Source: Eledone cirrhosa (Eukaryota). From it: a DNA stretch of 64,000 nt. Both the position numbers and the translations under genes were made by a program. Below are positions 3,124 through 60,848 of the stretch, one piece after another (position 1 is the stretch's first letter; each line of letters opens with the position of its first letter). The stretch covers positions 54,932,001 through 54,996,000 of the forward strand of contig OZ024750.1 of assembly GCA_964016885.1 (NCBI GenBank). The letters are read 5' to 3'. The notes beneath the pieces were generated by a model. The model saw only the letters and a list, made by a program, of their open reading frames with translations. It searched no databases and had not been told where the DNA came from.

Positions 3124-3340
3124 TATATATATATGTATATATATATCTGTATAAATTTATATATATATATATATATATAGTTAAAAGAATAGAGGTGTAA
3201 CACACAAGTTATTATATATTGGTAAACGGAATAGAAAATGCTGACAAATTGTTCACAGTTGAAAAATGGTTTAATTAGGAATAAAAGAGTATTAGTGATT
3301 GTATGGGTTAGTATTCAGTTGTGGTTTTAAGTTTTTAAGT

Positions 3341-3377
3341 TTTTACCGGTTGCGCATTTCTAAATGCTTTTCAAAAA
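3341..3377 (-). ncRNA. variant minimal type I hammerhead motif (PLE1 pLTR)
   Basis: ttt-TTGAAAA-gcatt(taga)aatgc-GCAA-CCGG-TA-aaa. It has the U3/A8 covariant core and palindromic P3, but GCAA replaces GAAA. Confidence 0.55.
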
Positions 3378-4301
3378 TAATTTTGAGATAGAGTGTCCGT
3401 GCTGTTTGCTCTGATCTGATTAGTTTTGGGAATTCTACCTGTGTTTTATGTTAAAAAAATGGCTCCAGCGTTATTTTTGTGTTGCAAAAATGCTTGTGGT
3501 CAAAACAATTTTGATTGGTCGGTAGAGGTCATGTGAATGTAAAAAGTTGATTTTGCGCCAAGACTGTTTTTATGTTAAAATGTTAGAAAAGTGGCTCCAG
3601 CAAAAATTATTGGTCAAAACAATTTTGATTGGTCGGTAGAGGTCATGTGGATAAAAAATTGGTTTTGCGCCAAGATTGAGAAATGACTCTTTCACAACAA
3701 ATATGTGTGTGTGTGTGTGTGTGTGTGTGGTAGTAGTAGTAAGGTGTTCGATGCTGCGACAATAGCCAGCAGCGATGTGTGTCGAATGGCTATTAAGATA
3801 AGTGTGTGTGTGTGTGTGTGTGTGTGCGTACATACACACAGCAGAGTCATTCGAAGGTCAAAAGATATTTTTCAGCTTTTGTCTTATACGGAGAAGTGCG
3901 TGTGTGTGTATAAGTCTCTTTGTATGTTGATGTACGCGTGTGTATGTGTTTGTGTATGTGTGTGTGTGTGTGGGTGGACCAGTATTTTTTCCCCCTGGTA
4001 AAATGGTGTACATTATTCGATTTTTTCAGTAAAATCGGTTCTCTTAATAGAACATCAACAATCTTAACAATAAAAGGTGTGAAATGATATTCACTATATA
4101 TATACACACACACACACACACATATATATTTTCACTACATATATATATATATACATATATACATACATATATATGCACATATATTTTTTTGTATTGCACC
4201 ATAGATCATGTGTGTTTACGTGTGTCATTGTGTTTATATGTGGGTAGAGATGTGTGCTGATGTAGGTATGTATGTTGACGTGTGTATGTTGTGGGTTCGT
4301 C

Positions 4302-5390
4302 TTAGGGAGAAGTGTTTAGACGGGGTCCGTATTTGTTAATGAAGTAAGATTCCTTGCTGATGCGCTGGGTGTGGGTGGCATTATCTTTAAATTTGTAGAG
4401 GGGAAAGATTCTGAAGTTGGGATGATTTTGGGCGGCACAGGTATCAATGTGTTCACTCAGTGGTATTTTCCTGTATTCCCGTATTTTAATTTGGGATCTA
4501 TGGACAGTCATGCGTTGGCGGAGGCTGTTTTTGGTCTGGCCTATGTATTGTTCTCGACAACCTGAACAAGTTAATACATATATTAAATTTTCCGATGCAC
4601 ATGTGAAATTGTGTTTTACTATAAAACGTTGTCCATCTTTGAAATAGAATTCCGAACCCTCTATTAGGTTGATGCAAATGCCACAATTGGGTCTATCGCA
4701 TTTTTTTACTGTGGGTTTCGTTGTTGTGGTTGGCAGTACTTTGGTATGTGTTAAGATGTTTTTCATTGACTTGGATTGTCTTTTGCTCTTTATGATATTG
4801 TGTGTTCGTAGAATTTGGTTCATTCTATGGTCCTTTTTCAATACAGGGATGTTCTGGAGGATGGTGTCAAAGGCCTCATTGTTGAGGGGGTTGTGTGTGG
4901 AGATGTATGGAAGAGCTTTTAGTTTTGGTTGATTTACTTTAGGGTGTCTAAGGTCCTGGGTACTGAGTTTTAGGGCACGTTGGATTCCATTGTCAATTAG
5001 TGATGCAGGGTAGTCCCTGCCTATGAGTGTGTCCTTTAGTTCTTGTAGCCGTAAGTAGCAGATGTTTTTATTGGAGACTATAGTACAGATTCTCTTGGCT
5101 AAGTTGTAGGGAATATTAATTTTAACGTGTCTAGGGTGGCAAGAGTTGAAGGGGAGGTATTGCTTGGAGTCTGTGGGCTTGTAGTATATGTCTGTTTCTA
5201 TTTTTTTGTTATGGATCTTAATGAGGATGTCGAGGAAGGGGAGTTGTTGATGGCTGTATTCCATCGTGAAGTTAATATTTGTGTTGAGCCCATTTATAAG
5301 GGTGTGAAATTCTTTAAGTTTTTCGATGTTTTCGTGCCAAAGGATGAAGCAGTCATCTAGATATCGCTTCCAGTTCCTTTCAATGTGTAA
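4302..5390 (-). pseudogene. 5'-truncated PLE RT/thumb-Zn linker-GIY-YIG ORF
   Basis: WKRYLDD, LPFLDI, YKPTDSKQYL, CDRPNCGIC linker, NLIYVLTCSGCREQYIGQT, stop at 4302. It starts at the inversion junction and has no true start. Confidence 0.9.
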
Positions 5391-5928
5391 TTCTATTTCA
5401 AAGATGGACAACGTTTTATAGTAAAACACAATTTCACATGTGCATCGGAAAATTTAATATATGTATTAACTTGTTCAGGTTGTCGAGAACAATACATAGG
5501 CCAGACCAAAAACAGCCTCCGCCAACGCATGACTGTCCATAGATCCCAAATTAAAATACGGGAATACAGGAAAATACCACTGAGTGAACACATTGATACC
5601 TGTGCCGCCCAAAATCATCCCAACTTCAGAATCTTTCCCCTCTACAAATTTAAAGATGATGCCACCCACACCCAGCGCATCAGCAAGGAATCTTACTTCA
5701 TTAACAAATACGGACCCCGTCTAAACACTTCTCCCTAAGACGAACCCACAGCATACACACGTCAACATACATACCTACATCAGCACACATCTCTACCCAC
5801 ATATAAACACAATGACACACGTAAACACACATGCTCTATGGTGCAATACAAAAAAATATATGTGCATATATATGTATGTATATATGTATATATATATATA
5901 TATGTAGTGAAAATATATATGTGTGTGT

Positions 5929-7088
5929 CATCATCATCATCATCATCACCGTTTTACGTCCGTTCTTCCACGCTAGCATGGGTTAGACGGGTTGTCCTGT
6001 TGTGGGCAGTGTCTGGTCGGCTGACCATGCCTTGCTCATACAGGAACTGATCTGGCTTGATTTCTACAGCTGGATGCCCTTCCTAACACCAACCTCATTT
6101 ACAGTGAGTGCTGGGTGCTTTTTCGTGGCGCCTACACGTCCACTTTACAGTGTGGGCTGGGTGCTTTTTTGCCGTGGCACCTCCACGACCACCTTGCGGT
6201 GGGGTGGGGGGGCATATTGTTTATATGCTTCAGCATGTACCCATGGGAGGTCGGGTACCCTGTATTACTGCGTGACGCCAGAAGTCACGGTCGTGTGTCA
6301 TTGACTTTGAGAGGTGTAGTTGGGTAAGGTCGGCTTTTATCACCTCATCCCAAGTCATCTTGGGTCTCCCCACTCCGCGGTTTCCATCAACTTCTAGTGC
6401 TCTGCACCTTTTTATGCAGCTGTCATCCTTCATACGCATCACATGTCCATACCAGCGTAACCGCCTCTCCTGCACGCAGCATTTGATTCCTCTTATGCTC
6501 AGTCTCTCTCTCAATTCATTTATGCTTTGTCGTTCACGTATATTACTGTTACACATCCATCGGAGCATGCAGGCTTCGTTTCTCTCTAATCTACGTAAGT
6601 CTTCCACCTTCAGCGCCCAGGTCTCACTACCATGCAACATCGCTGTTCGGATACACGCATCATACAGTCTGCCTTTCATTCTGAGGGAGAAGCCTTTTGC
6701 AGCTAGCAGTGGTAGTAGTTCCCTAAACTTCTTCCATCCCGTTCTTACCCTAGTTATTGTACTTTCTGAGCACCCACCTCCGTTGCTAATTCGGTCACCT
6801 AGGTAGCAGAAGCTGTCTACTGTTTCTACAGGGCCCTCCCAGAGATTGGTGGTACTTGTTTCCTGTGGCTGTTTGCTTGCTGTTTCAGCACAGCTGCTGC
6901 ATGTGAATCCTACATTCTTAATTAAGCTTCCTGAGATCCCGCTACATCTCTTGTGTACCCATTGTTTGCATTTGGGGCAAAGAATGGAGTTCCTACCTAC
7001 ACCTTTCCTACATACTGAGCAAGGCCATTTCCCTGAGGGGATCTGGGTTCTGTTTTCTCGTCTACTTATAAGGACCTTAGTCTTTGTC
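5929..7088 (-). mobile_element. 5'-truncated RTE LINE with (GAT)n tail and 10-bp TSD
   Basis: ORF 6230-7090 (WPCSVC..CPKC..WVHKRC, FCYLG, MLHGSETW, RLRWYGHVMR). The tail reads (CAT)n at 5929-5948 on +. TSD atgtgtgtgt at 5919-5928 and 7089-7098. The insertion is absent from the sister arm at ~4090-4120. Confidence 0.92.
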
Positions 7089-7229
7089 ATGTGTGTGTGT
7101 ATATATATATAGTGAATATCATTTCACACCTTTTATTGTTAAGATTGTTGATGTTCTATTAAGAGAACCGATTTTACTGAAAAAATCGAATAATGTACAC
7201 CATTTTACCAGGGGGAAAAAAATACTGGT

Positions 7230-7268
<39 letters not shown>

Positions 7269-7393
7269 CACAAACACATACACACGCGTACATCAACATA
7301 CAAAGAGACTTATACACACACACACACTTCTCCGTATAAGACAAAAGCTGAAAAATATCTTTTGACCTTCGAATGACTCTGCTGTGTGTATGT

Positions 7394-7427
<34 letters not shown>

Positions 7428-7502
7428 ATCTTAATAGCCATTCGACACACATCGCTGCTGGCTATTGTCGCAGCATCGAACACACTACTATTACTACTAC
7501 AC

Positions 7503-7560
<58 letters not shown>

Positions 7561-7883
7561 TTGTTGTGAAAGAGTCATTTCTCAATCTTGGCGCAAAACC
7601 AATTTTTTATCCACATGACCTCTACCGACCAATCAAAATTGTTTTGACCAATAATTTTTGCTGGAGCCACTTTTCTAACATTTTAACATAAAAACAGTCT
7701 TGGCGCAAAATTAACTTTTTACATTCACATGACCTCTACCGACCAATCAAAATTGTTTTGACCACAAGCATTTTTGCAACACAAAAATAACGCTGGAGCC
7801 ATTTTTTTAACATAAAACACAGGTAGAATTCCCAAAACTAATCAGATCAGAGCAAACAGCACGGACACTCTATCTCAAAATTA

Positions 7884-7920
7884 TTTTTGAAAAGCATTTA
7901 GAAATACGCAACCGGTAAAA
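7884..7920 (+). ncRNA. variant minimal hammerhead motif, inverted-arm copy
   Basis: Same as 3341-3377, with one G>A change in stem II at 7906. Confidence 0.5.
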
Positions 7921-8042
7921 ACTTAAAAACTTAAAACCACAACTGAATATTAACCCATACAATCACTAATACTCTTTTATTCCTAATTAAACCATTTTTC
8001 AACTGTGAACAATTTGTCAGCATTTTCTATTCCGTTTACCAA

Positions 8043-8408
<366 letters not shown>

Positions 8409-8593
8409 GATAAATCTACCAAGAGTTTACGGTAGTGTCCAATCCGTATGAAGAACTCAATGTATTCCGGATATCATGGAAAGAAGAGATGTAATGAAAA
8501 TCCACTTTCGGTGAAAGATAAACGGTATACAGAGTCAAGATAAAATATTAAACAAATAATGAACAAACAATTCCTTATATTAAACAAAAAAAG

Positions 8594-8748
8594 TTCACTA
8601 TTTAACGATCGTTTCTAGGGTATATATGTGTTATAATTGGTATGCATATTTAACAGATCTATGTACAAAATTATACAAAATTATACAAATTATCAAGATT
8701 AAATATACATACCTAACTCATATATACGCCGTCTTCAGAAATAATGAA
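8594..8748 (-). ncRNA. type I hammerhead ribozyme with extended stem II
   Basis: Reverse complement of 9419-9573. Confidence 0.75.
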
Positions 8749-9418
8749 GTATATTTATTGATAATAACAACAATTCAAAATATCAGTTCAAAATTGACCA
8801 ATGAAAACACAAAGGGTTAAAAGCAGTTTGGTGTGTGTATATACATGTAAAAACCTTACACATATTTTACAATTATTTTTCTTAATTTATAGATACATTT
8901 ATATTAGGCAGTCTGGTCTGACAATCTAATACTGACCCCTCCCCCCCCCTCCCACCTAATTTCTGTATCTTGATCTTGAAATGTGTGTGCCAGTGTTTTT
9001 ATGTGAGTGACTTAATTTCTATTTGCTTATGATTTTATATCCACATATATAAATGTGAGTGGGGGAGTGTGTGTGTTTGTATGTTCGTGGTTATGTGTAT
9101 ATTTATGCATATACGCACATGTATGTGTGATTATACTGATATGTGTGAGTATGAAAAAAATATATTTATATGCTTGACTCCATAAGTATCATTGAGTATC
9201 TTATCAGCGCATTAAGCTTACAGAGATATTAACCTTGAAATTTTGTGTTTGCATCCATCTTTTTAGTATGCACATACAAATTATACACACATTATTGTAA
9301 AATATGTGTAAGGTTTTTACATGTATATACACACACCAAACTGCTTTTAACCCTTTGTGTTTTCATTGGTCAATTTTGAACTGATATTTTGAATTGTTGT
9401 TATTATCAATAAATATAC

Positions 9419-9573
9419 TTCATTATTTCTGAAGACGGCGTATATATGAGTTAGGTATGTATATTTAATCTTGATAATTTGTATAATTTTGTATAATTTT
9501 GTACATAGATCTGTTAAATATGCATACCAATTATAACACATATATACCCTAGAAACGATCGTTAAATAGTGAA
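9419..9573 (+). ncRNA. type I hammerhead ribozyme with ~115-nt stem II
   Basis: Stem I ttcattattt/aaatagtgaa (10 bp), CTGAAGA 9429-9435, stem II helices gtatatatg/catatatac and ggtatgtatatttaa/ttaaatatgcatacc, GAAA 9552-9555, palindromic CGATCG, GTT cleavage triplet. Confidence 0.78.
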
Positions 9574-9627
9574 CTTTTTTTGTTTAATATAAGGAATTGT
9601 TTGTTCATTATTTGTTTAATATTTTAT

Positions 9628-9908
<281 letters not shown>

Positions 9909-10167
9909 TAAATGTAAGTATGCATGTATACGTACATACATATATGTATACAGACGTACAGTAGCATGCACATATATATATATATATACATATATACATA
10001 CATATGCATACAGGTACACATACATATATGCACGTATCAGTTTAGCGGCGCTAACGTCGCTTTGTTCGTTTGTAAACAAACTGTATATGCAAATTAGGCT
10101 GCTCAGCCGTTAATTTTCATAAGGAAAGTATATACTTTCGAACGTTCAACTATCTGGCAGATGGGTA

Positions 10168-10212
10168 AACGGTGCTGATGATAGCTAACAAGCTTGAAAC
10201 TAGTACATCGTT
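10168..10212 (+). ncRNA. minimal type I hammerhead ribozyme, unit 1
   Basis: aacggtg-CTGATGA-t-agct(aaca)agct-t-GAAA-CTAG-TA-catcgtt: canonical core, palindromic P3, 7-bp stem I. Confidence 0.9.
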
Positions 10213-10633
10213 CCTGTGTCAGTGTTGAACAAAAAGGTGACGTGGTTGCCTTAACACCGTATGGCATAAATTCAGGCTGTTCAGTTTGTTTACAAACGAA
10301 CAAAGCGACGTTAGCGCCGCTAAACTGATACGTGCATATATGTATGTGTACCTGTATGCATATGTATGTATATATGTATATATATATATATATGTGCATG
10401 CTACTGTACGTCTGTATACATATATGTATGTACGTATACATGCATACTTACATTTAAGTAAGTGCCATACTAAGAGTGAGAAATGAAATTTCGTTTTCAT
10501 TTTGTTTCAATTTATCGTTTTCGGTATGCCTGACCGATTTAACTCACTCAATATGCAAATTAGGCTGCTCAGCCGTTAATTTTCATAAGGAAAGTATATA
10601 CTTTCGAACGTTCAACTATCTGGCAGATGGGTA

Positions 10634-10678
10634 AACGGTGCTGATGATAGCTAACAAGCTTGAAACTAGTACATCGTT
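10634..10678 (+). ncRNA. minimal type I hammerhead ribozyme, unit 2
   Basis: Identical to 10168-10212. Confidence 0.9.
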
Positions 10679-11099
10679 CCTGTGTCAGTGTTGAACAAAA
10701 AGGTGACGTGGTTGCCTTAACACCGTATGGCATAAATTCAGGCTGTTCAGTTTGTTTACAAACGAACAAAGCGACGTTAGCGCCGCTAAACTGATACGTG
10801 CATATATGTATGTGTACCTGTATGCATATGTATGTATATATGTATATATATATATATATGTGCATGCTACTGTACGTCTGTATACATATATGTATGTACG
10901 TATACATGCATACTTACATTTAAGTAAGTGCCATACTAAGAGTGAGAAATGAAATTTCGTTTTCATTTTGTTTCAATTTATCGTTTTCGGTATGCCTGAC
11001 CGATTTAACTCACTCAATATGCAAATTAGGCTGCTCAGCCGTTAATTTTCATAAGGAAAGTATATACTTTCGAACATTCAACTATCTGGCAGATGGGTA

Positions 11100-11144
11100 A
11101 ACGGTGCTGATGATAGCTAACAAGCTTGAAACTAGTACATCGTT
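11100..11144 (+). ncRNA. minimal type I hammerhead ribozyme, unit 3
   Basis: Identical to 10168-10212. Confidence 0.9.
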
Positions 11145-11565
11145 CCTGTGTCAGTGTTGAACAAAAAGGTGACGTGGTTGCCTTAACACCGTATGGCATA
11201 AATTCAGGCTGTTCAGTTTGTTTACAAACGAACAAAGCGACGTTAGCGCCGCTAAACTGATACGTGCATATATGTATGTGTACCTGTATGCATATGTATG
11301 TATATATGTATATATATATATATATGTGCATGCTACTGTACGTCTGTATACATATATGTATGTACGTATACATGCATACTTACATTTAAGTAAGTGCCAT
11401 ACTAAGAGTGAGAAATGAAATTTCGTTTTCATTTTGTTTCAATTTATCGTTTTCGGTATGCCTGACCGATTTAACTCACTCAATATGCAAATTAGGCTGC
11501 TCAGCCGTTAATTTTCATAAGGAAAGTATATACTTTCGAACGTTCAACTATCTGGCAGATGGGTA

Positions 11566-11610
11566 AACGGTGCTGATGATAGCTAACAAGCTTGAAACTA
11601 GTACATCGTT
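11566..11610 (+). ncRNA. minimal type I hammerhead ribozyme, unit 4
   Basis: Identical to 10168-10212. Confidence 0.9.
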
Positions 11611-12031
11611 CCTGTGTCAGTGTTGAACAAAAAGGTGACGTGGTTGCCTTAACACCGTATGGCATAAATTCAGGCTGTTCAGTTTGTTTACAAACGAACA
11701 AAGCGACGTTAGCGTCGCTAAACTGATACGTGCATATATGTATGTGTACCTGTATGCATATGTATGTATATATGTATATATATATATATATGTGCATGCT
11801 ACTGTACGTCTGTATACATATATGTATGTACGTATACATGCATACTTACATTTAAGTAAGTGCCATACTAAGAGTGAGAAATGAAATTTCGTTTTCATTT
11901 TGTTTCAATTTATCGTTTTCGGTATGCCTGACCGATTTAACTCACTCAATATGCAAATTAGGCTGCTCAGCCGTTAATTTTCATAAGGAAAGTATATACT
12001 TTCGAACGTTCAACTATCTGGCAGATGGGTA

Positions 12032-12076
12032 AACGGTGCTGATGATAGCTAACAAGCTTGAAACTAGTACATCGTT
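12032..12076 (+). ncRNA. minimal type I hammerhead ribozyme, unit 5
   Basis: Identical to 10168-10212. Confidence 0.9.
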
Positions 12077-12497
12077 CCTGTGTCAGTGTTGAACAAAAAG
12101 GTGACGTGGTTGCCTTAACACCGTATGGCATAAATTCAGGCTGTTCAGTTTGTTTACAAACGAACAAAGCGACGTTAGCGCCGCTAAACTGATACGTGCA
12201 TATATGTATGTGTACCTGTATGCATATGTATGTATATATGTATATATATATATATATGTGCATGCTACTGTACGTCTGTATACATATATGTATGTACGTA
12301 TACATGCATACTTACATTTAAGTAAGTGCCATACTAAGAGTGAGAAATGAAATTTCGTTTTCATTTTGTTTCAATTTATCGTTTTCGGTATGCCTGACCG
12401 ATTTAACTCACTCAATATGCAAATTAGGCTGCTCAGCCGTTAATTTTCATAAGGAAAGTATATACTTTCGAACGTTCAACTATCTGGCAGATGGGTA

Positions 12498-12542
12498 AAC
12501 GGTGCTGATGATAGCTAACAAGCTTGAAACTAGTACATCGTT
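12498..12542 (+). ncRNA. minimal type I hammerhead ribozyme, unit 6
   Basis: Identical to 10168-10212. Confidence 0.9.
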
Positions 12543-12841
12543 CCTGTGTCAGTGTTGAACAAAAAGGTGACGTGGTTGCCTTAACACCGTATGGCATAAA
12601 TTCAGGCTGTTCAGTTTGTTTACAAACGAACAAAGCGACGTTAGCGCCGCTAAACTGATACGTGCATATATGTATGTGTACCTGTATGCATATGTATGTA
12701 TATATGTATATATATATATATATGTGCATGCTACTGTACGTCTGTATACATATATGTATGTACGTATACATGCATACTTACATTTAAGTAAGTGCCATAC
12801 TAAGAGTGAGAAATGAAATTTCGTTTTCATTTTGTTTCAAT

Positions 12842-15442
<2,601 letters not shown>

Positions 15443-15510
15443 AAAAAGGGATGAAATCGAAAATGCAACTGAAGTCTTATTTTTTTAAAAATATATATAT
15501 TTATTTGATT

Positions 15511-15548
15511 CCTTTACCGGTTTCGCAGTTCTTCTGCTTTTCAAAAGG
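15511..15548 (-). ncRNA. minimal type I hammerhead (U3-A8 variant), inverted pLTR
   Basis: Reverse complement of 18317-18354. Confidence 0.8.
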
Positions 15549-16067
15549 TGAGTTGAGATGGAGGGTCTGTGGTTTTTCTCACATCTGGTTGGTCTCTAAA
15601 TGTTACTTGTTTTATATGGAAAAACTGGCTCGAAAACCAAGTTTTTCGAGAAGTAATTTGATTGGTTTGTCAATAATTATAATAAATTTCGCGCCAGTTC
15701 GCGTTACAATAGTTCTTCAAATAAGAGAGGGGGGGGGGGGGGGGGTTTGTCACAGGTTGTTTTTTCATATATGAGTGTTTGAATTTCTTTTTACTTGAAA
15801 AAATGAGGCTCACGAAGGCTTTTTTTTGGTTGGTTATAAATGAAATTTGGCTGTCACGTGAACAAGTTTTCATTACATTTTTGCGCCCTTATTTGGAAAA
15901 CTATTCTGTAGTCTATAGTGAATGTTATGACGATGGAGAGATAGTGGTCAAGGGAAAAGGGATTGGGAGAAATGTTCTGGTTCAGTGAATATGGCCAGCT
16001 GTCAGAGTTCAGGTGTCAGAGTTCAGATTTTCTATTGAGACTGAAGATATGTGTTTATTTGTGTGCT

Positions 16068-16106
<39 letters not shown>

Positions 16107-16356
16107 ATTGGAAGATGATTCTATTAGTAGAGATGGGGGAGGGAGTTGTGTGTGTGTGTATATGGGTGTTATGTGTGTGTGTGCGAGTATGTTAGATAGA
16201 GAGAATATATATTTTTTGTGTGTGTGTATATATATATGTGTGTAGGAAAGTGGTTCTATTAGTAGAAATGGGGAGGGTGTTGTAGGTGTGGGGGTTTTTA
16301 TGTGTGTGTATGGGTGTTATGTGTGTGGGAGTATGGTTAGCATGTTAAGATGAAGA

Positions 16357-16397
<41 letters not shown>

Positions 16398-17470
16398 GTG
16401 TGTGTATGTGTGTGTGTAGGAAAATGATTCCTTTAGTAGGAATATTTTTGAATGAACATATTTTCCTGACTTTTTCGTGTTTGCTGTTGTATTGCCAGTG
16501 CAAACGTATGTTTAAGGTTTATTTAGTTCGGGTTTTTATTTTCTAAAGTAGGTGTTATGTGTGTGTGTGTATGTCATATTGTGGTGTTGACATAATGTAT
16601 ATTAAACCTTATTTAATGTTGGTCTATATTTTTGAATAAACATATTTTCCTTATTTATTCGCATTTGTTCTGTTGTATTGTTAGCGCAAAGGTAAAATGG
16701 GAAGACTTGGAATTTGGGTGTCTTATTACTTGCGCAAATGTCTAGATGTGCACTTAGTGGTATTTGTCTCGTGGTTGGATCTCGTAATTGTTGGCGATGA
16801 ACTGTCATTCTGTTTCTGAGTGTGAGTTTAGTTTGTCCTATATAATCTTCATTGCATCCTTTACATTTAATGGCATAAATTAGATTTTTTGATGAGCAAG
16901 TGAAGTGATTTTTTACAGTAAAATTTTGTCCTGATTTAAATGTATACGTGTTGCCTTCAATGAGGTGAGTGCAGGTTCCACAATTAGAGCGACCATTAAA
17001 TGTAAAGGATGCAATGAAGATTATATAGGACAAACTAAACTCACACTCAGAAACAGAATGACAGTTCATCGCCAACAATTACGAGATCCAACCACGAGAC
17101 AAATACCACTAAGTGCACATCTAGATATTTGCGCAAGTAATAAGACACCCAAATTCCAAGTCTTCCCATTTTACCTTTGCGCTAACAATACAACAGAACA
17201 AATGCGAATAAATAAGGAAAATATGTTTATTCAAAAATATAGACCAACATTAAATAAGGTTTAATATACATTATGTCAACACCACAATATGACATACACA
17301 CACACACACATAACACCTACTTTAGAAAATAAAAACCCGAACTAAATAAACCTTAAACATACGTTTGCACTGGCAATACAACAGCAAACACGAAAAAGTC
17401 AGGAAAATATGTTCATTCAAAAATATTCCTACTAAAGGAATCATTTTCCTACACACACACATACACACAC

Positions 17471-17507
<37 letters not shown>

Positions 17508-17753
17508 TCTTCATCTTAACATGCTAACCATACTCCCACACACATAACACCCATACACACACATAAAAACCCCCACACCTACAACACCCTCCCCATTTCT
17601 ACTAATAGAACCACTTTCCTACACACATATATATATACACACACAAAAAATATATATTCTCTCTATCTAACATACTCGCACACACACACATAACACCCAT
17701 ATACACACACACACAACTCCCTCCCCCACCTCTACTAATAGAATCATCTTCCA

Positions 17754-17798
<45 letters not shown>

Positions 17799-18168
17799 AG
17801 CACACAAATAAACACATATCTTCAGTCTCAATAGAAAATCTGAACTCTGACACCTGAACTCTGACAGCTGGCCATATTCACTGAACCAGAACATTTCTCC
17901 CAATCCCTTTTCCCTTGACCACTATCTCTCCATCGTCATAACATTCACTATAGACTACAGAATAGTTTTCCAAATAAGGGCGCAAAAATGTAATGAAAAC
18001 TTGTTCACGTGACAGCCAAATTTCATTTATAACCAACCAAAAAAAAGCCTTCGTGAGCCTCATTTTTTCAAGTAAAAAGAAATTCAAACACTCATATATG
18101 AAAAAACAACCTGTGACAAACCCCCCCCCCCCCCCCTCTCTTATTTGAAGAACTATTGTAACGCGAAC

Positions 18169-18255
18169 TGGCGCGAAATTTATTATAATTATTGACAAAC
18201 CAATCAAATTACTTCTCGAAAAACTTGGTTTTCGAGCCAGTTTTTCCATATAAAA
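18169..18255 (+). promoter_or_regulatory. putative pLTR promoter: E2F-like site, CCAAT box, TATA box
   Basis: TGGCGCGAAA 18169-18178, CCAAT 18200-18204, TATAAAA 18249-18255, ~70 bp upstream of the HHR core. A similar motif set is present in PLE1. Confidence 0.4.
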
Positions 18256-18316
18256 CAAGTAACATTTAGAGACCAACCAGATGTGAGAAAAACCACAGAC
18301 CCTCCATCTCAACTCA

Positions 18317-18354
18317 CCTTTTGAAAAGCAGAAGAACTGCGAAACCGGTAAAGG
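18317..18354 (+). ncRNA. minimal type I hammerhead (U3-A8 variant), 5' pLTR
   Basis: cctt-TTGAAAA-gcag(aagaa)ctgc-GAAA-CCGG-TA-aagg. Predicted cleavage is after 18350. Confidence 0.82.
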
Positions 18355-18518
18355 AATCAAATAAATATATATATTTTTAAAAAAATAAGACTTCAGTTGC
18401 ATTTTCGATTTCATCCCTTTTTCTTTATACTTCCACTCGTGTAGGACACCTCGGTTATTTTTCATTTTGTAAAAAAAACCTCACTTTCTAATATATACCC
18501 ACCACACGAAGACCGAAA

Positions 18519-19721
18519 ATGCCACCAAAGTCTCAACAAAACAACAACTCACGGAACCAGGACATCTTAAATGAACTCAAAGAGATTTCCTCTAAACTCT
18601 CAATTTTGACCAACAAAGTGGACCAAATACACATCTATAAAAAAGGACCCCACGAAGAAACAGAAAATACCCAAGAGACGAATATTACTCCAGTATTAAC
18701 TAAGCTAATCGAAACCATTGAAACAACAATGCTCCAAAAGCTTGAACAACCGTTAGAACCCAATCTACGAGATGTCCACTCAGTGAAAAACACCCTAATC
18801 AACATATGGACTCAAAAGCTCACAGCCCGCAAATTCGCCCTTTGGAATCTCCTAAAAAATAATGGCAAGGCAGACATATATGAAAAGTGGCTAAACTCTA
18901 CCCCAATCATCCTCCCCAAAAAACTCCAAATAAAACCCATCCCGAATGAACCAGAAAACCAACAAAGACTTAGGGAAAAGATGGCATTGGAAAAATTTAA
19001 AACAGAAATAGAACTGTTGCGATTAAGAGCCAACTCCAACGAAGAAAAATTCAAGTCACTCGACCAACAGATGGACACAGAAATCTCAAAGCACTCTGAA
19101 GGCCTACTCTACAAAAAAACCCTAAAACTTTGGAAAGAAAACTGTGAGGATGAAGAACTCACATCCCTCCAGCGATGGGAAAAAAACGCCACCTGGTTCA
19201 ACAACTACGAAATGGACTTCAAAAATGAACAACATACAGGTAACCCATTTTTAAAACAAACTAAAACTCACACACCACATGCACAACAAATAACAAAAAA
19301 AGTAACAAAACGTCCAACATACCCCCAGCAAAACTATAACGATAATCCCAGAAACCATAGACAAAACTATAACCCTACTAACAAAAACCAAAGATCCCCG
19401 AACACAAGGCAGGACCTGATCCGCAGATCACAACCCACACAAAACCTATTCCAAAACCGTAGACCCCTGCCCACACAGAGCCTGTTCCAAAACCATAGAT
19501 CCCAACCCACACAAAGGAACCAAATCTACAACCCGGACTATCAACAAACCGAACCTCAATACGTCCGAAACTTCTATACAAGACCACACAACAACAGGGG
19601 AAATACCATTAGATATAATAATACCAATGAAAAAACATTCCAGAAAAATCATTTTTTAGACCAAGGCTACAGGACTCACGACACCCGGTGGCACAAACCG
19701 ATTTTGAAAAACCGAAAATAA
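18519..19721 (+). CDS. PLE ORF1, 400 aa: coiled-coil/helical N-terminal part and Q/N/R-rich low-complexity C-terminus
   Basis: ATG 21 nt after the pLTR end. Heptad-like segments (ILNELKEISSKLSILTNKVDQI; LEKFKTEIELLRLR). Repeats RSQPTQNLFQNR/RPLPTQSLFQNH. Overlaps ORF2. Confidence 0.85.
   Translation: MPPKSQQNNNSRNQDILNELKEISSKLSILTNKVDQIHIYKKGPHEETENTQETNITPVLTKLIETIETTMLQKLEQPLEPNLRDVHSVKNTLINIWTQKLTARKFALWNLLKNNGKADIYEKWLNSTPIILPKKLQIKPIPNEPENQQRLREKMALEKFKTEIELLRLRANSNEEKFKSLDQQMDTEISKHSEGLLYKKTLKLWKENCEDEELTSLQRWEKNATWFNNYEMDFKNEQHTGNPFLKQTKTHTPHAQQITKKVTKRPTYPQQNYNDNPRNHRQNYNPTNKNQRSPNTRQDLIRRSQPTQNLFQNRRPLPTQSLFQNHRSQPTQRNQIYNPDYQQTEPQYVRNFYTRPHNNRGNTIRYNNTNEKTFQKNHFLDQGYRTHDTRWHKPILKNRK
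19652..19692 (+). promoter_or_regulatory. putative programmed -1 ribosomal frameshift signal
   Basis: T_TTT_TTA heptamer 19652-19658 in the ORF1 frame, 7-nt spacer, stem gctacagg/ccggtggc. ORF2 is in the -1 frame and is open from 19631. Confidence 0.75.
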
Positions 19722-21946
19722 TTAACATTTCAAATACAAACCTCTCAGCCCAACAAGTAAAAATTCTCTCCAAAGGTCTGAAATTCACACCAACACCACA
19801 ATATCCTAACCCCAACGAGATAAATGACGATATCTCACACTTCTGTAGAAAATTACGTCTCACAGAGGAATTCTTTGACAAGGAGAATAACGACGAATCA
19901 ATTGTACGGAATAAAAGCAGCTACAACCCAACAAAAGGTAGAAACAGAGTTCTGGACAAATTTTGTGACCACATAGCTACCTTCCCATACCATGAACTAC
20001 CGCAACCTAAACCCAAACCCAACACAAGTCGAAGGGAATGGGAGATTATCCATGAACTAAAAAACAATCCGGACATTGTAATTAAGGAAGCGGACAAGGG
20101 AAGTACTGTTGTCATTATGGAGGCTGAAAAATATAAAAATTCTATGTTCTCTCTCTTACAAAATGCTAATTACTATGAAAGAGTAAAAAACTACCAGCAA
20201 TCAAAAATAATGACCAAATTAAACACACTGATTTATCGATACCAGGAAGACCTAACTAAAAAGGAACGCGATTATTTAACAAATTTTGAATACAAAACCA
20301 GCAACCTTTACGGACTTCCGAAGATCCACAAATGTAAAATAATCAACGATGCCTGTAAACAATCCACCTCAGCCTGCGTGAACACACAATACCCCACAGA
20401 CCTTAAATTAAGACCAATTGTAGCGGGCCCACAATGTGAAACACACAGATTGAGCAACTTTATAGACATACTACTGAAACACATACCAAGCCTTGTAAGA
20501 GACGATCTGGACCTCTTAAACCACCTCCCCAAACATGTCAACAACGACACTATTATTGTATCTTTCGATGTAGTGAATCTCTACACAACGATCCCACACC
20601 AATACGGACTAGAAGCAATAGGATTCTGGCTAGAGAAATATCCCAATGAGATACCTGACAGAATAGAAAAAAGCTTCATCACCGAGGGATTAAAATTCAT
20701 CCTACAGAACAACTTTTTTGATTTCGATGGCAATACTTACAAGCAAATATCGGGGACTGCGATGGGCACAAAAGCCGCTCCAACTTATGCCAACTTAGTC
20801 ATGGCATACTTAGAAGTCCAGATATATGAACAGTCCAAATCAAAATACGGATTGAACTTCCACAAATATTTATCAGAGAATTGGAAACGCTACTTGGATG
20901 ATTGCCTCATTCTTTGGTCCCACACACTCGACCAACTGAAGGTTTTCAAAAACTTAATAAACGGCATCAATAACCACATCCAATTCACAATGGAATACAG
21001 CCAAGATCAACTCCCATTTCTGGACATTTTAATCACAAAAAAAGACACAAATATCGAAACTGACATACACTACAAACCAACAGATTCCAAACAATATCTG
21101 CTATTCACCTCCAACCATCCAAAGCACACGAAGACGAACATTCCTTTTAACCTAGCAAGAAGAATTTGCACAATTGTCTCCAATTATGAAACGCGAAATA
21201 AAAGACTTCAAGAATTAAAGGAAATTCTACTTGAGAGAGAGTACCCACTATTACTAATAAATAATGGAATAGAAAGGGCTAAAGCAATAGGCATTGATGA
21301 ATTACGGAAACAGAAACAAATTCAAGGTACGTCCAATATTCTATCATATATCTCAACACACAACCCAAGAAATGCGGAAGCTTACAACACTATTCACAAT
21401 AACATCCCACTACTAAAACAAAACCCAAGAATGAAAAAAGCCCTTGAAACACACAAAATAATCAAAAGCAAAAGACAACCAAAATCACTGAAAACATTAC
21501 TCACCAATGCCAAATTACCTACCACAAACCCACAACCAAGTATCAAAAAATGTGGTCGCTCTAATTGTGGAACCTGCACTCACCTCATTGAAGGCAACAC
21601 GTATACATTTAAATCAGGACAAAATTTTACTGTAAAAAATCACTTCACTTGCTCATCAAAAAATCTAATTTATGCCATTAAATGTAAAGGATGCAATGAA
21701 GATTATATAGGACAAACTAAACTCACACTCAGAAACAGAATGACAGTTCATCGCCAACAATTACGAGATCCAACCACGAGACAAATACCACTAAGTGCAC
21801 ATCTAGACATTTGCGCAAGTAATAAGACACCCAAATTCCAAGTCTTCCCATTTTACCTTTGCGCTAACAATACAACAGAACAAATGCGAATAAATAAGGA
21901 AAATATGTTTATTCAAAAATATAGACCAACATTAAATAAGGTTTAA
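19658..21946 (+). CDS. PLE reverse transcriptase - Zn linker - GIY-YIG endonuclease (ORF2), probably expressed as an ORF1 fusion
   Basis: IKEADKG, LYGLPKIHK, LRPIV, SFDVVNLYT, GTAMG, WKRYLDD, LPFLDI, CGRSNCGTC, NLIYAIKCKGCNEDYIGQT. No stops, and no ATG before ~aa 140. Confidence 0.93.
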   Translation, partial: RPRLQDSRHPVAQTDFEKPKIINISNTNLSAQQVKILSKGLKFTPTPQYPNPNEINDDISHFCRKLRLTEEFFDKENNDESIVRNKSSYNPTKGRNRVLDKFCDHIATFPYHELPQPKPKPNTSRREWEIIHELKNNPDIVIKEADKGSTVVIMEAEKYKNSMFSLLQNANYYERVKNYQQSKIMTKLNTLIYRYQEDLTKKERDYLTNFEYKTSNLYGLPKIHKCKIINDACKQSTSACVNTQYPTDLKLRPIVAGPQCETHRLSNFIDILLKHIPSLVRDDLDLLNHLPKHVNNDTIIVSFDVVNLYTTIPHQYGLEAIGFWLEKYPNEIPDRIEKSFITEGLKFILQNNFFDFDGNTYKQISGTAMGTKAAPTYANLVMAYLEVQIYEQSKSKYGLNFHKYLSENWKRYLDDCLILWSHTLDQLKVFKNLINGINNHIQFTMEYSQDQLPFLDILITKKDTNIETDIHYKPTDSKQYLLFTSNHPKHTKTNIPFNLARRICTIVSNYETRNKRLQELKEILLEREYPLLLINNGIERAKAIGIDELRKQKQIQGTSNILSYISTHNPRNAEAYNTIHNNIPLLKQNPRMKKALETHKIIKSKRQPKSLKTLLTNAKLPTTNPQPSIKKCGRSNCGTCTHLIEGNTYTFKSGQNFTVKNHFTCSSKNLIYAIKCKGCNEDYIGQTKLTLRNRMTVHRQQLRDPTTRQIPLSAHLDICASNKTPKFQVFPFYLCANNTTEQMRINKENMFIQKYRPTLNKV

Positions 21947-22150
21947 TATACATTATGTCAACACCACAATATGACATACACACACACACATAACACCTAC
22001 TTTAGAAAATAAAAACCCGAACTAAATAAACCTTAAACATAGGTTTGCACTGGCAATACAACAGCAAACACGAAAAAGTCAGGAAAATATGTTCATTCAA
22101 AAATATTCCTACTAAAGGAATCATTTTCCTACACACACACATACACACAC

Positions 22151-22187
<37 letters not shown>

Positions 22188-22437
22188 TCTTCATCTTAAC
22201 ATGCTAACCATACTCCCACACACATAACACCCATACACACACATAAAAACCCCCACACCTACAACACCCTCCCCATTTCTACTAATAGAACCACTTTCCT
22301 ACACACATATATATATACACACACACAAAAAATATATATTCTCTCTATCTAACATACTCGCACACACACACATAACACCCATATACACACACACACAACT
22401 CCCTCCCCCATCTCTACTAATAGAATCATCTTCCAAT

Positions 22438-22468
<31 letters not shown>

Positions 22469-22988
22469 CACACACAAGCACACAAATAAACACATATCTT
22501 CAGTCTCAATAGAAAATCTGAACTCTGACACCTGAACTCTGACAGCTGGCCATATTCACTGAACCAGAACATTTCTCCCAATCCCTTTTCCCTTGACCAC
22601 TATCTCTCCATCGTCATAACATTCACTATAGACTACAGAATAGTTTTCCAAATAAGGGCGCAAAAATGTAATGAAAACTTGTTCACGTGACAGCCAAATT
22701 TCATTTATAACCAACCAAAAAAAAGCCTTCGTGAGCCTCATTTTTTCAAGTAAAAAGAAATTCAAACACTCATATATGAAAAAACAACCTGTGACAAACC
22801 CCCCCCCCTCTCTTATTTGAAGAACTATTGTAACGCGAACTGGCGCGAAATTTATTATAATTATTGACAAACCAATCAAATTACTTCTCGAAAAACTTGG
22901 TTTTCGAGCCAGTTTTTCCATATAAAACAAGTAACATTTAGAGACCAACCAGATGTGAGAAAAACCACAGACCCTCCATCTCAACTCA

Positions 22989-23026
22989 CCTTTTGAAAAG
23001 CAGAAGAACTGCGAAACCGGTAAAGG
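22989..23026 (+). ncRNA. minimal type I hammerhead (U3-A8 variant), 3' pLTR
   Basis: Identical to 18317-18354. Confidence 0.82.
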
Positions 23027-23156
23027 AATCAAATAAATATATATATTTTTAAAAAAATAAGACTTCAGTTGCATTTTCGATTTCATCCCTTTTTCTTTAT
23101 ACTTCCACTCGTGTAGGACACCTCGGTTATTTTTCATTTTGTAAAAAAAACCTCAC

Positions 23157-25654
<2,498 letters not shown>

Positions 25655-58162: not shown

Positions 58163-58927
58163 GTAATAATTCAGGAAGGAAGGGGCTGGTGAAACGCTAT
58201 AGCAATGTGTGTGTGTTGTGTACCTTTCAGGTTTACCGGTTTCGTAGCCTATTTGAAGATTTTATTATAATTATGAACCTTATAATTCAATTAATTATGA
58301 ATAATTTTGAGCTATTTATCACAATTGTTAGTTAATTACTAACATAGTAACTTACCATATGGTTGTTATATAGAATTTTGTTGGAAGACTTTAATTTAGA
58401 TAGGAACCATTTCCATAGTACGAGAACTAATTTTGGTTGGGTTTCTACCAAAAGAGTTAATGAAGAATTTTGAACAATTTACTAAAATTATTAATTATTT
58501 CATTACTAAGATAATGTGTGAATACACAATTATATGTGTGTATATATATATAAACAGTATATATATATATAGTATATATATATATAAACAGTATATATAT
58601 ATATAGTATATATATATATAAACAGTATATATATAGTATACAAAAGATGTAGTGGGATAGTGTGTAGTCTTAAGACAAGTCTGTCCAGATAGCTGCGCTG
58701 TAACTTACACTTATTGGGACTGTGTGTTGGCAAGCAGGCCTGTATTTTGGGATCTAGCTGGTCCATTATGAGGGAGGTCTGGTTAGTTGGCAGCACCATG
58801 CCTTACTTGTGGTATATGTATGTATAGAAATAAGTTATTGTATATGCATAACTGTCCATCTATATGTATACATGTATGTTTACTTATATCTTTGCATACA
58901 TATATACATTTTCAGATGTATACACGT

Positions 58928-60848
58928 AATGGTCACCCGGATAGTAAACCAAGTCATACAGAATGGGGTTGTTCTGAAGGACTGGCGTAGCAGCATCATC
59001 ATTAACTGTTACAAGGGTAAAGGAGATGCCCTAGATAGGAGTAACTATAGAGGCATTAAATTAATCGACCAGGTCATGAAGGTCACGGAAAAAGTAATAG
59101 CGCAACTAATCAGAGAGAGAATTGATCTAGATGAAATGCAGTTCGGGTTTGTGTCAGGTAAAAGTACCACAGACGCTCTTTTCATTGTACGACAACTACA
59201 GGAGAAGTACCTAGTTAAAAGTAAACCCCTATACTTAGCTTTTGTTGACTTGGAGAAAGCCTTCGACAGAGTCCCCCGTTCCATTATCTGGTGGGCTCTT
59301 AGAAAACTAGGTGTTGAGGAATGGCTTGTGAGAGCTATACGAGCCATGTATAAAGAAACAGTCAGCAAGGTTAGAATTAACAACGAATATAGTGAAGAGT
59401 TTAGCGTAAAAGTTGGTGTTCATCAGGGCTCCGTCCTTAGCCCCCTACTATTTATTATTGCCCTTCAGGCTATAACAGTGGAGTTCAAGACCGGCTGCCC
59501 ATGGGAACTCCTATACGCAGATGATCTAACGCTCATAGCTGAATCAATGGCCGAGCTAGAGAAGAAATTCCAAACATGGAAGCAAGGCCTAGAATCAGAA
59601 GGCCTTAAAATTAACCTGGCTAAGACTAAAGTTCTAGTTTGTAGGAAAGAAAATAAGGCGCCGGTCCCTTCCGGGAAATGGCCATGCTCAGTGTGTAGGA
59701 AAGGCGTAGGTAGAAACTCCATTTTATGTCCCAAATGCAAAGTATGGGTTCATAAAAGATGTAGTGGGATCACAGGTAAGCTAACTAAGAACATAGATTT
59801 TACATGTGGCCGGTGCTCTGGTGCAATAAGTAGCAGCAAGTGCCCACAAAATACTAGCTCTTTCAATTGCGCAGAGGGTTCTATAGAAATAGTGGACAGC
59901 TTCCGTTACCTGGGTGACAAAATCAGCAGTGGGGGAGGGTGCTCTGAAAGTACAGTAGCTAGAGTCAGAACTGGATGGAAAAAGTTCAGAGAGCTTATAC
60001 CACTATTAGCCGCTAAAGGGTTCTCCCTAAAAATGAAAGGCAGGTTGTATGATGCCTGCATATGAACAGCAATGTTGCATGGCAGTGAGACCTGGGCATT
60101 GTGTGCAGAGGATATACGCAGACTAGAGAGGAACGAAGCTTGCATGCTTCGCTGGATGTGTAATAGTAATATATGTGAACGGCAAAGCATAAACGAACTA
60201 AGGGAAAAATTAGAAATAAGAGGGATCAGATGTTGTGTACTCGAGAGAAGACTACGTTGGTATGGTCCACGTGATGCGGATGAAAGACGACAGCTGTATA
60301 AAAAAAATGCAGGGCAATAAAGATAGACGGTAGCCACGGAGTAGGCAGACCCAGAAAAACCTGGGACGACTTGATAAATTCCGACCTCACACACTTACAC
60401 CTCTCCAAGACAATGTCACTGGACCGAGATCTTTGGCGGTACTCAGTAATAGAGAAGACCCGCCTTACCTAGATACAAAGTAAAACCTACTACAGTCAGT
60501 AGGCACCTCTAACAAAATACACCCCCACCCCATCCACACCGCCCCTTTCAATGTAAAGTTATGTTGGTGCCACAACATCCAGGCCGAAACAAATGAGGTC
60601 GTGTAGGTGTCACGACAAAAAAAAAAAACACAGTCCACGCAGTAATGTGGCCGTGTAGGTAACACGGTAAAAACCTCTCAGTCCCACACTGTAAATGCGG
60701 TTGGTGTTAGGAAGGGCATCCAGCTGTAGAAAACCCGCCAGACAGTCCTATGCGAGCAAGACAACCACTCTTGCCTCAAGTGGGAAAATTCCCGTCCAAA
60801 CCCATGCAAGCGTGGAATATGGACGTTAAACGATGACGATGATGATGA

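What the first reader, a model, noticed from the sequence alone, without database searches (positions are those of the whole stretch)
9909..12841. 466-nt retrozyme concatemer: footprint of rolling-circle reverse transcription of a viroid-like circular RNA
Seen: 5.9 almost identical units with one canonical HHR each. The array starts and ends at points unrelated to the cleavage site, carries a PLE-style inverted 175-bp head, and sits in (TA)n next to an intact PLE. The unit is rich in hairpins and palindromes (ggctg/cagcc, gaaagtatatactttc, agcgacg/cgccgct, tcggt/accga, gaaatgaaa/tttcgtttt) and has no credible ORF. Known: metazoan non-LTR retrozymes are tandem HHR repeats that yield circRNAs of a few hundred nt, and PLE mobilisation has been proposed for them. 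Inference: a single event copied a circle about six times, and the shared inversion and target are structural evidence that a PLE RT/EN did it.
Basis: partly seen in the sequence, partly recalled or inferred. Interest (0 to 1): 0.85.

Follow-up and report, generated by a model that had tools for sequence, protein, structure and literature searches.

The report
Penelope-mobilised hammerhead retrozyme array
This is one of thousands of genomic insertions of a 466-base non-coding repeat that carries a predicted self-cutting hammerhead RNA; their two fixed ends, inverted arm and TA-repeat targets match the footprint of Penelope-like retrotransposons, which likely copied it, probably from an RNA circle that has not yet been observed.

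Summary
Observation confirmed: 5.9 units of 466 nt (two substitutions), six type I hammerhead cores, a perfect 175-bp inverted arm, (TA)n on both sides. The ribozyme is the weak type (palindromic helix III, U·U at helix II) and likely cuts as a dimer. The family is large (10,718 exact cores). Its 3' ends are not random: 79 of 100 arms end at two sites 59 nt apart, and 43 of 55 inverted arms end at the inner site. This is the Penelope-like (PLE) 'tail', shown in vitro to mark two internal RT starts. 5' ends are scattered, 117 of 118 passes cross the cleavage site, junctions carry no indels (209 of 209), and young arrays are mostly uniform within a locus. This favours a circular monomer template. 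An uncleaved multimer remains a serious rival, and a few long arrays are mosaic. No RNA evidence was obtainable. The neighbouring PLE shares the architecture but no sequence, so the partner is unidentified. Verdict: a new member of the known non-LTR retrozymes, with unusually direct genomic evidence for PLE mobilisation; not a viroid. The scan reported similar arrays in other genomes.

The parts
9909..10083 (-). Inverted arm, unit positions 77-251 (position 1 = first base after the predicted cut); its outer end is the family's inner fixed 3' site (251)
   Evidence: 175/175 complementary to 10282-10456; 43 of 55 inverted arms end at 243-251
10084..10084 (.). One extra base at the head-to-head junction of the two arms
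10085..12841 (+). Main arm: 5.9 head-to-tail 466-nt units, 5' end at unit position 346, 3' end at 306 (the family's outer fixed site, 305-310)
10168..10212 (+). Type I hammerhead 1: 7-bp helix I, CUGAUGA, U·U plus 3-bp helix II, GAAA, palindromic ACUAGU helix III, predicted cut after GUA (10205/10206)
   Evidence: helix I G·U becomes U·G in the sister family
10634..10678 (+). Hammerhead 2
11100..11144 (+). Hammerhead 3
11566..11610 (+). Hammerhead 4
12032..12076 (+). Hammerhead 5
12498..12542 (+). Hammerhead 6
10206..10671 (+). First of five complete cut-to-cut monomers (predicted 466-nt RNA or circle, 36% GC)
10326..10445 (+). Quasi-palindromic TA/TG-rich stretch within each unit, predicted long hairpin; the length-variable part of the family
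12787..12845 (+). 59-nt 'tail' between the two fixed 3' sites (positions 252-310), present on the main arm and absent from the inverted arm; the last four bases overlap the target repeat
9625..9908 (.). Left (TA)n target, interrupted by CTG
12842..15439 (.). Right (TA)n target, interrupted by CTG
15436..23169 (+). Context, not part of the element: PLE with inverted arm 15436-16873, 1.5-kb pseudo-LTRs, a 68-nt tail, ORF 18492-19721 and RT/GIY-YIG ORF 19631-21946 joined by a probable -1 frameshift at 19652-19658, and its own minimal hammerhead (18321, 22993)

Best explanation
This is a non-coding, hammerhead-bearing tandem repeat (a non-LTR retrozyme) whose copies end at two fixed sites in TA repeats, and it was likely inserted in one event by the reverse transcriptase/endonuclease of a Penelope-like element, probably rolling round a 466-nt RNA circle predicted to form after ribozyme self-cleavage. 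Steps: (1) inferred: a genomic array is transcribed as a multimer. (2) Predicted: neighbouring hammerheads pair through the ACUAGU palindrome and cut at GUA; a host ligase would close the monomer, in which the lone ribozyme would be nearly silent. (3) Inferred from the footprint: a PLE protein nicks both strands of (TA)n and primes cDNA from each nick at one of two internal RNA sites (positions 251 and 310, both at AUUUA-like words with 3-5 nt of likeness to the TA primer). (4) Shown in DNA: each arm runs 5'-ward with a roughly constant drop-off (1.2 stops per kb on the main arm) and passes the cleavage site without pause or scar. (5) Inferred: the two cDNAs are joined head to head, which gives a long arm with the 59-nt tail and an inverted arm without it.
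For: 10,718 exact 31-nt cores, 0 for the reversed control. In 53 loci picked by the ribozyme plus the window, 47 of 100 arms end at 302-310 and 32 of 100 at 245-255. Genome-wide there are 1,786 outer-site and 2,343 inner-site junctions to (TA)n under exact patterns. Of 73 loci picked by the outer site, 55 have an inverted arm and 43 of these end at 243-251. A sister family (424 nt, 74% identical) uses the homologous sites, 56 nt apart (9 arms at each among 38 segments). Both PLEs in the window show the same long and short ends (68 nt; about 40 nt). Frangieh et al. (PMC11167929) showed in vitro that a PLE protein cuts and extends both strands and starts RT at two internal sites that define the tail. 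Main-arm 5' ends are uniform over the unit; 117 of 118 passes continue across the cut site (1 stop seen, 1.1 expected); about 0.5-0.6 of arms complete each further lap. 209 of 209 cleavage junctions have no indel. 15 young multi-unit loci carry 10 haplotypes, each fixed within its locus. 48 multi-unit loci show 389 singleton against 10 partly shared variants, and for 17 of 22 loci the own inverted arm ranks in the closest quarter. Retrozymes of coral, mussel and axolotl do give circles (PMC7229834).
Against: No RNA, cleavage or circle was observed here. In the PLE in vitro system, hammerhead mutants inserted normally and unprocessed RNA was the main substrate (PMC11167929). Non-autonomous Chlamys PLEs make multicopy head-to-tail insertions in a clade without canonical hammerheads (PMC8557442), so tandems do not require a ribozyme-made circle. 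Only 1 of 9 predicted Xenopus retrozyme dimers cleaved in vitro (bioRxiv 10.64898/2026.07.22.740005). L092 carries a three-unit variant pattern twice in one arm and once in the other, and L034, L102 and L053 have partly shared variants; one monomer circle cannot give that. Inverted arms stop at positions 1-60 more often than a constant rate predicts (15 against 5.1; partly a detection bias). No PLE with a related pseudo-LTR was found among 50 GIY-YIG loci or the window's elements.
Confidence: 0.6

Rival explanations
1. Same PLE-driven insertion from the same two start sites, but the template was an uncleaved (or re-ligated) multimeric transcript of a long, uniform source array. The hammerhead is incidental to insertion.
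For: Predicts seamless junctions and no stop at the cut site just as well. The ribozyme looks weak. Unprocessed RNA was the main substrate in vitro (PMC11167929). The mosaic L092, with one variant order in both arms, fits a multi-unit template. Arrays of 11-15 units exist as possible sources.
Against: Copying a linear multimer cannot spread a new variant to every unit of an arm, yet 10 haplotypes are each fixed among 15 young loci, and 16 private variants are fixed in 9 loci, 12 of them across both arms. All 51 arm-arm junctions are different, so no source junction was seen re-copied (weak if sources are many). The hammerhead core is kept in two families 26% apart, with a pair-preserving double change.
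Confidence: 0.3
2. A short PLE-type insertion was later expanded in place by DNA-level tandem duplication and homogenised by conversion.
For: Alternating or repeated variant blocks in L034, L092, L102 and L053. Li et al. (bioRxiv 10.64898/2026.07.22.740005) discuss local amplification by unequal crossover.
Against: Partly shared variants are rare (10 against 389 singletons, 4 of 48 loci). Unit numbers fall off geometrically, as for a processive enzyme. In 20 of 55 two-armed loci both arms cross a cleavage site. The window's five full units differ only by two singletons.
Confidence: 0.07
3. The RT copied cleaved linear monomers and jumped end to end, telomerase- or R2-like, with no covalent circle.
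For: Helix I would hold the two ends of a cleaved monomer together, and jumping on one molecule would also give one haplotype per locus.
Against: No excess of 5' ends at the cut (1 of 118 passes; 8 genome-wide (TA)5-to-cut-site joints) and no indel in 209 junctions.
Confidence: 0.03

Closest known systems
Metazoan non-LTR retrozymes (Cervera and de la Peña 2020, PMC7229834; results and discussion read)
   Same: Tandem non-coding units under 50% GC, one type I hammerhead each, thousands of copies, structured predicted circle, PLEs in the same genome. Helix III matches their description of axolotl HHR_Amex1 (one pair plus palindromic tetraloop) and the U·U at helix II matches HHR_Amex2.
   Different: Unit is slightly above their 150-450 bp range and holds a TA-rich hairpin. 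Circles were shown there and not here. In the parts read they describe no inverted arm, fixed 3' ends or tail; their review (PMC7761336, passage) says the repeats show no conserved motif pointing to the partner.
Retrozymes as non-autonomous PLE derivatives (Li, Clavereau and Pollet 2026, bioRxiv 10.64898/2026.07.22.740005; main text read, supplements not seen)
   Same: Same conclusion that PLEs mobilise them; similar copy-number range (75% of families at most seven units).
   Different: Their evidence is co-occurrence and pseudo-LTR homology in Xenopus. Here it is insertion architecture, and no homologous pseudo-LTR was found.
EN+ Penelope-like elements: Poseidon PAc in vitro (PMC11167929, main text read); structure of insertions (PMC8557442, passages)
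   Same: Two internal RT start sites that define a tail, inverted 5'-truncated arm, partial tandems, AT-rich or (TA)n targets.
   Different: No ORF. Tail is 59 nt rather than 30-40. Both start sites show short likeness to the TA primer, whereas PAc started at a site not homologous to the cut DNA.
Non-autonomous Chlamys PLEs such as MRC1 (PMC8557442, passage)
   Same: Non-coding, PLE-mobilised, often multicopy head to tail.
   Different: Clade lacks canonical hammerheads, and those elements generally resemble their autonomous partner at the 3' end.
Hammerhead viroids (Avsunviroidae; defining features recalled)
   Same: Small, non-coding, structured, hammerhead-bearing predicted circle.
   Different: Ribozyme on one strand only, genome-encoded, spread through DNA; nothing points to RNA-to-RNA replication or infectivity.

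Membership tests
Non-LTR retrozyme | Head-to-tail units of a few hundred bp, each with a type I hammerhead | tested here: met
   5.9 x 466 nt, six cores with helices I and II; Rfam match is below gathering score
Non-LTR retrozyme | Non-coding, under 50% GC, no LTR layout | tested here: met
   36% GC, no credible ORF; simple tandem plus inverted arm. PBS and PPT were not searched for
Non-LTR retrozyme | Dispersed, multicopy, monomers to multimers | tested here: met
   10,718 exact cores, 28,207 with a relaxed pattern; arms cross 0 to 15 cleavage sites
Non-LTR retrozyme | Self-cleavage of the transcript | not testable with these tools
   Active helices I and II cost 2.2 kcal/mol over the predicted minimum in the circle; one pair-preserving double change; no assay
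Non-LTR retrozyme | Expressed as linear and circular monomer RNA | not testable with these tools
   No usable RNA run
PLE-mobilised non-autonomous element | Two fixed 3' ends separated by a tail | tested here: met
   79 of 100 arms end in two narrow windows 59 nt apart; same in the sister family
PLE-mobilised non-autonomous element | Inverted, 5'-truncated arm next to the main arm | tested here: met
   55 of 73 loci
PLE-mobilised non-autonomous element | Microsatellite (TA)n target shared with resident PLEs | tested here: met
   flanks listed; the window's PLEs end in (TA)n
PLE-mobilised non-autonomous element | Sequence similarity to the pseudo-LTR of an autonomous partner | tested here: inconclusive
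   None in 50 loci taken from 150 scored of 10,596 GIY-YIG candidates, nor in the window's PLEs; the three hits (L168, L204, L205) are themselves retrozyme-family copies near a PLE
Hammerhead viroid (Avsunviroidae) | Hammerheads in both polarities (recalled) | tested here: not met
   none on the minus strand
Hammerhead viroid (Avsunviroidae) | Infectious RNA-to-RNA replication with no DNA form (recalled) | tested here: not met
   thousands of genomic DNA copies with retrotransposition ends

The most novel reading that the evidence does not exclude
These insertions are a direct genomic record of two-headed rolling-circle target-primed reverse transcription: a PLE RT/endonuclease primes both nicked target strands on one ribozyme-made RNA circle at two fixed internal sites, rolls through the sealed hammerhead up to 15 times, and joins the two cDNAs head to head. 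The same reaction on a circular template would explain the pseudo-LTRs, inversions and tails of PLEs themselves.
Probability: 0.45. Interest if true: 0.75.

Novelty: new member of a known kind. Interest (0 to 1): 0.5.

Why it matters
How animal retrozymes move, and whether the RNA circle is the real template, is proposed but unproven in the papers read. This family gives a large, partly very young set of insertions (many arms 97-100% identical to the window's unit) in which the PLE tail signature, the two RT start sites and the absence of any stop at the ribozyme cut can be counted. It names exact RNA positions (251 and 310) and near-identical PLE copies in the same genome for an in vitro test of circle against linear template. 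That test bears on the unexplained tandem and inverted structure of PLEs, the closest relatives of telomerase RT. The element class itself is known, so the value lies in mechanism, not in a new kind of element.

Tried and rejected
DNA search of the own genome with a 216-nt piece returned nothing, not even the window (common words are skipped), so exact patterns were used. The repeat finder was swamped by (TA)n. My first parser and the relaxed BLAST pairing ran into the inverted arm and into plain TA repeats because the unit's microsatellite is quasi-palindromic; their apparent hot spot of 5' ends in the microsatellite was an artefact and is discarded in favour. The nearest-neighbour test was dominated by ties on short overlaps (31 of 194 strictly own-locus, 69 ties) and was replaced. 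RNA: no RNA holder listed; the one RNA run laid gave 0 reads and is no test. Target-site duplications cannot be read inside (TA)n. Rfam hits to miRNA families come from the TA-rich hairpin and all lie below gathering score. The adjacent PLE as proven partner was rejected: no shared sequence, and only a minority of the 53 first loci have any PLE ORF match within about 5 kb (9 loci). A partner search over 50 GIY-YIG loci found no related pseudo-LTR. A literature search on a guessed host group returned nothing relevant; the host was not identified. Earlier-findings look-ups by a long word list and by place were empty.

Full report
OBSERVATION. The array is real and as described. Periodicity of 466 nt runs from 10085 to 12841 with two substitutions. 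9909-10083 is the exact reverse complement of 10282-10456, and both sides are (TA)n. Six hammerhead cores lie on the plus strand, none on the minus strand, which gives five complete cut-to-cut monomers. I number unit positions from the first base after the predicted cut (10206 = 1). The main arm then runs from position 346 to 306 and the inverted arm covers 77-251.

THE RIBOZYME. It has a 7-bp helix I, the core CUGAUGA...GAAA, a GUA cut site, a 3-bp helix II opened by U·U, and a helix III of one pair plus the palindromic loop CUAG. Cervera and de la Peña (PMC7229834, results read) describe both traits in the two axolotl ribozymes, which cut weakly alone and well as dimers; dimer cleavage is therefore my inference here. 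Rfam finds nothing at gathering score and HH9 at 18.5 bits against 52. Forcing helices I and II in the circle costs 2.2 kcal/mol. A sister family swaps a G·U of helix I for U·G, one pair-preserving double change. The unit folds better than shuffles even without its TA-rich part (z -4.6, but equally on both strands).

THE FAMILY. The 31-nt core occurs 10,718 times in the 3.0-Gb genome, control 0; a relaxed pattern gives 28,207. I fetched the 53 clusters formed by the first 100 listed hits, all on contig C1. Of 100 arms there, including the window's two, 47 end at positions 302-310 and 32 at 245-255, nearly always running into (TA)n (BLAST extension into TA rounds ends towards 310 and 251). Exact patterns count 1,786 outer-site and 2,343 inner-site junctions and 5,784 read-throughs of the outer site. 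For a sample not chosen by the ribozyme I took the first 75 of the 1,786 outer-site hits; two were dropped because their 210-nt context matched another's, leaving 73. A strand-aware parse finds an inverted arm in 55 of 73, ending at 243-251 in 43, inside the microsatellite in 6 and elsewhere in 6. Six of the 73 insertions are as long as the window's. A sister family (424 nt, 74% identical; 20 loci fetched) ends at the homologous sites 221 and 277 (9 and 9 of 38 segments, several of the rest being plain TA matches).

WHO MOVED IT. Craig et al. (PMC8557442, passages) list partial tandems, an inverted 5'-truncated copy, a 30-40 bp tail at one end only and (TA)n bias as PLE hallmarks. Frangieh et al. 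(PMC11167929, main text read) showed that a purified PLE protein cuts and extends both target strands and starts RT at two internal RNA sites, the tail being the sequence between them. This element has that layout with a 59-nt tail. The window's own PLEs show it too: 68 nt for the one at 15436-23169 and about 40 nt for the one at 3124-8144. I put PLE mobilisation above 0.9. The partner is not identified. The neighbour encodes RT and GIY-YIG in two frames with a U UUU UUA site conserved in three PLE families (Craig's Fig. 1 legend mentions such a frameshift), so it may be intact, and copies 96-98% identical exist. But it shares no sequence with the unit, carries a different minimal hammerhead, and 50 further GIY-YIG loci gave no related pseudo-LTR.

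WHAT WAS THE TEMPLATE. If cleaved linear monomers were copied, 5' ends should pile up at position 1. They do not: main-arm stops are uniform over the unit (1.2 per kb), 117 of 118 passes continue across the cut, and arms complete each further lap with probability about 0.5-0.6, up to 15. All 209 junctions read between exact anchors have the same length, and only 8 places in the genome join (TA)5 straight to the cut site. The template was therefore continuous across the cut. Units within a locus mostly share one haplotype: 10 haplotypes among 15 young multi-unit loci; 16 private variants fixed in 9 loci, 12 across both arms; in the second sample 10 private fixed variants, 389 singletons and 10 partly shared variants over 48 loci, and the own inverted arm ranks in the closest quarter in 17 of 22 loci. 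A new variant can fill a whole arm only if one unit is read repeatedly, which is what a circle does.

AGAINST THE CIRCLE. A multimer transcribed from a uniform array gives the same seamless result at any one locus, including the window's. In vitro, hammerhead mutants did not reduce PLE insertion and unprocessed RNA was the main substrate (PMC11167929). Non-autonomous Chlamys elements form head-to-tail multicopies in a clade without canonical hammerheads (PMC8557442). Only 1 of 9 Xenopus retrozyme dimers cleaved (bioRxiv 10.64898/2026.07.22.740005). L092 has a three-unit variant pattern twice in one arm and once in the other; L034, L102 and L053 also have partly shared variants. These need a multimer template or later duplication and conversion. 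Inverted arms stop at positions 1-60 more often than expected (15 against 5.1), which I cannot fully explain. I give the monomer circle 0.6, uncleaved or ligated multimers 0.3, DNA-level expansion 0.07 and template jumping 0.03.

COMPARISON AND NOVELTY. The element meets every testable feature of a non-LTR retrozyme and fails the viroid tests. Circles, the rolling model and PLEs as candidates are in print (PMC7229834; PMC4209133, part 2 of 4 read; PMC7761336, passages), and a 2026 preprint argues for PLE origin from co-occurrence and pseudo-LTR homology. In searches and the texts read I found no report of PLE-type tails, fixed start sites or inverted arms counted on a retrozyme family, or of a test for stops at the cut site. 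The library lacks most subscription papers, and I did not read supplements (those of PMC7229834 and of the preprint may bear on this). PMC9977147 (passages) added only that non-autonomous PLE insertions can be very short. The scan's own notes report comparable arrays in other genomes (unchecked AI notes), one of them a PLE-type tandem in TA repeats with a tRNA and no ribozyme, which would again show that the ribozyme is not needed for such arrays.

VERDICT. New member of a known kind; interest 0.5. The class is known, but the family offers unusually clear genomic evidence for PLE mobilisation and defines a direct experiment on circle against linear template.

Noticed in passing
window 19652-19658: The PLE's two reading frames overlap at an in-frame U UUU UUA slippery site that recurs at the same place in two other PLE families about 55% identical (L206; L197, L201), a probable programmed -1 frameshift. 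Craig et al. Fig. 1 legend notes such frameshifts. L194 has a single 1096-aa frame instead.
   Followed up: partly
window 8406-9625: A second element without a long ORF, with divergent arms in (TA)n; one arm is longer by roughly 130 nt, like a long tail. My scan found no hammerhead in it. Probably another PLE-type truncated or non-autonomous insertion.
   Followed up: partly
window 3124-8144: Truncated PLE (about 56% protein identity to the neighbour PLE) with inverted arms and a tail of about 40 nt; its plus arm is interrupted by a PHD-bearing LINE fragment. Its minimal hammerhead has U3-A8 and GCAA in place of GAAA.
   Followed up: partly
window 18321, 22993 (+) and 15544 (-): Minimal hammerhead of the neighbour PLE with a compensated U3-A8 core and a palindromic ACCGGU helix III.
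   Followed up: partly
window 33334-57004 and 62004-64000: About four tandem copies of a ~5.9-kb unit with RT fragments; each holds a CTGAGGA...GAAA motif (37481, 43453, 49386, 55325) that failed my helix test.
   Followed up: no
window 58758-60065, 1-1883 and 1959-2582: LINE-type RT with a PHD finger, a related RT and endonuclease fragment, and a mariner-type transposase fragment.
   Followed up: no
L092 (G000:C1:69577000-69586900): Array of 15 plus 4 units in which a three-unit variant pattern occurs twice in one arm and once in the inverted arm: multimer template, or later duplication with arm-to-arm conversion.
   Followed up: partly
loci L031-L143, inverted arms: Inverted arms stop at unit positions 1-60 three times more often than a constant rate predicts, while main arms do not.
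   Followed up: partly
window 10457-10790 against runs X4 and X5: Near-identical pieces of the unit, including the hammerhead, lie in contigs of runs labelled as two different organisms; run type is not on record.
   Followed up: no
L185 2581-5123 and loci L174-L193: Sister retrozyme family (424 nt, core CUGACGA) with the same two 3' sites, apparently at least as abundant.
   Followed up: partly
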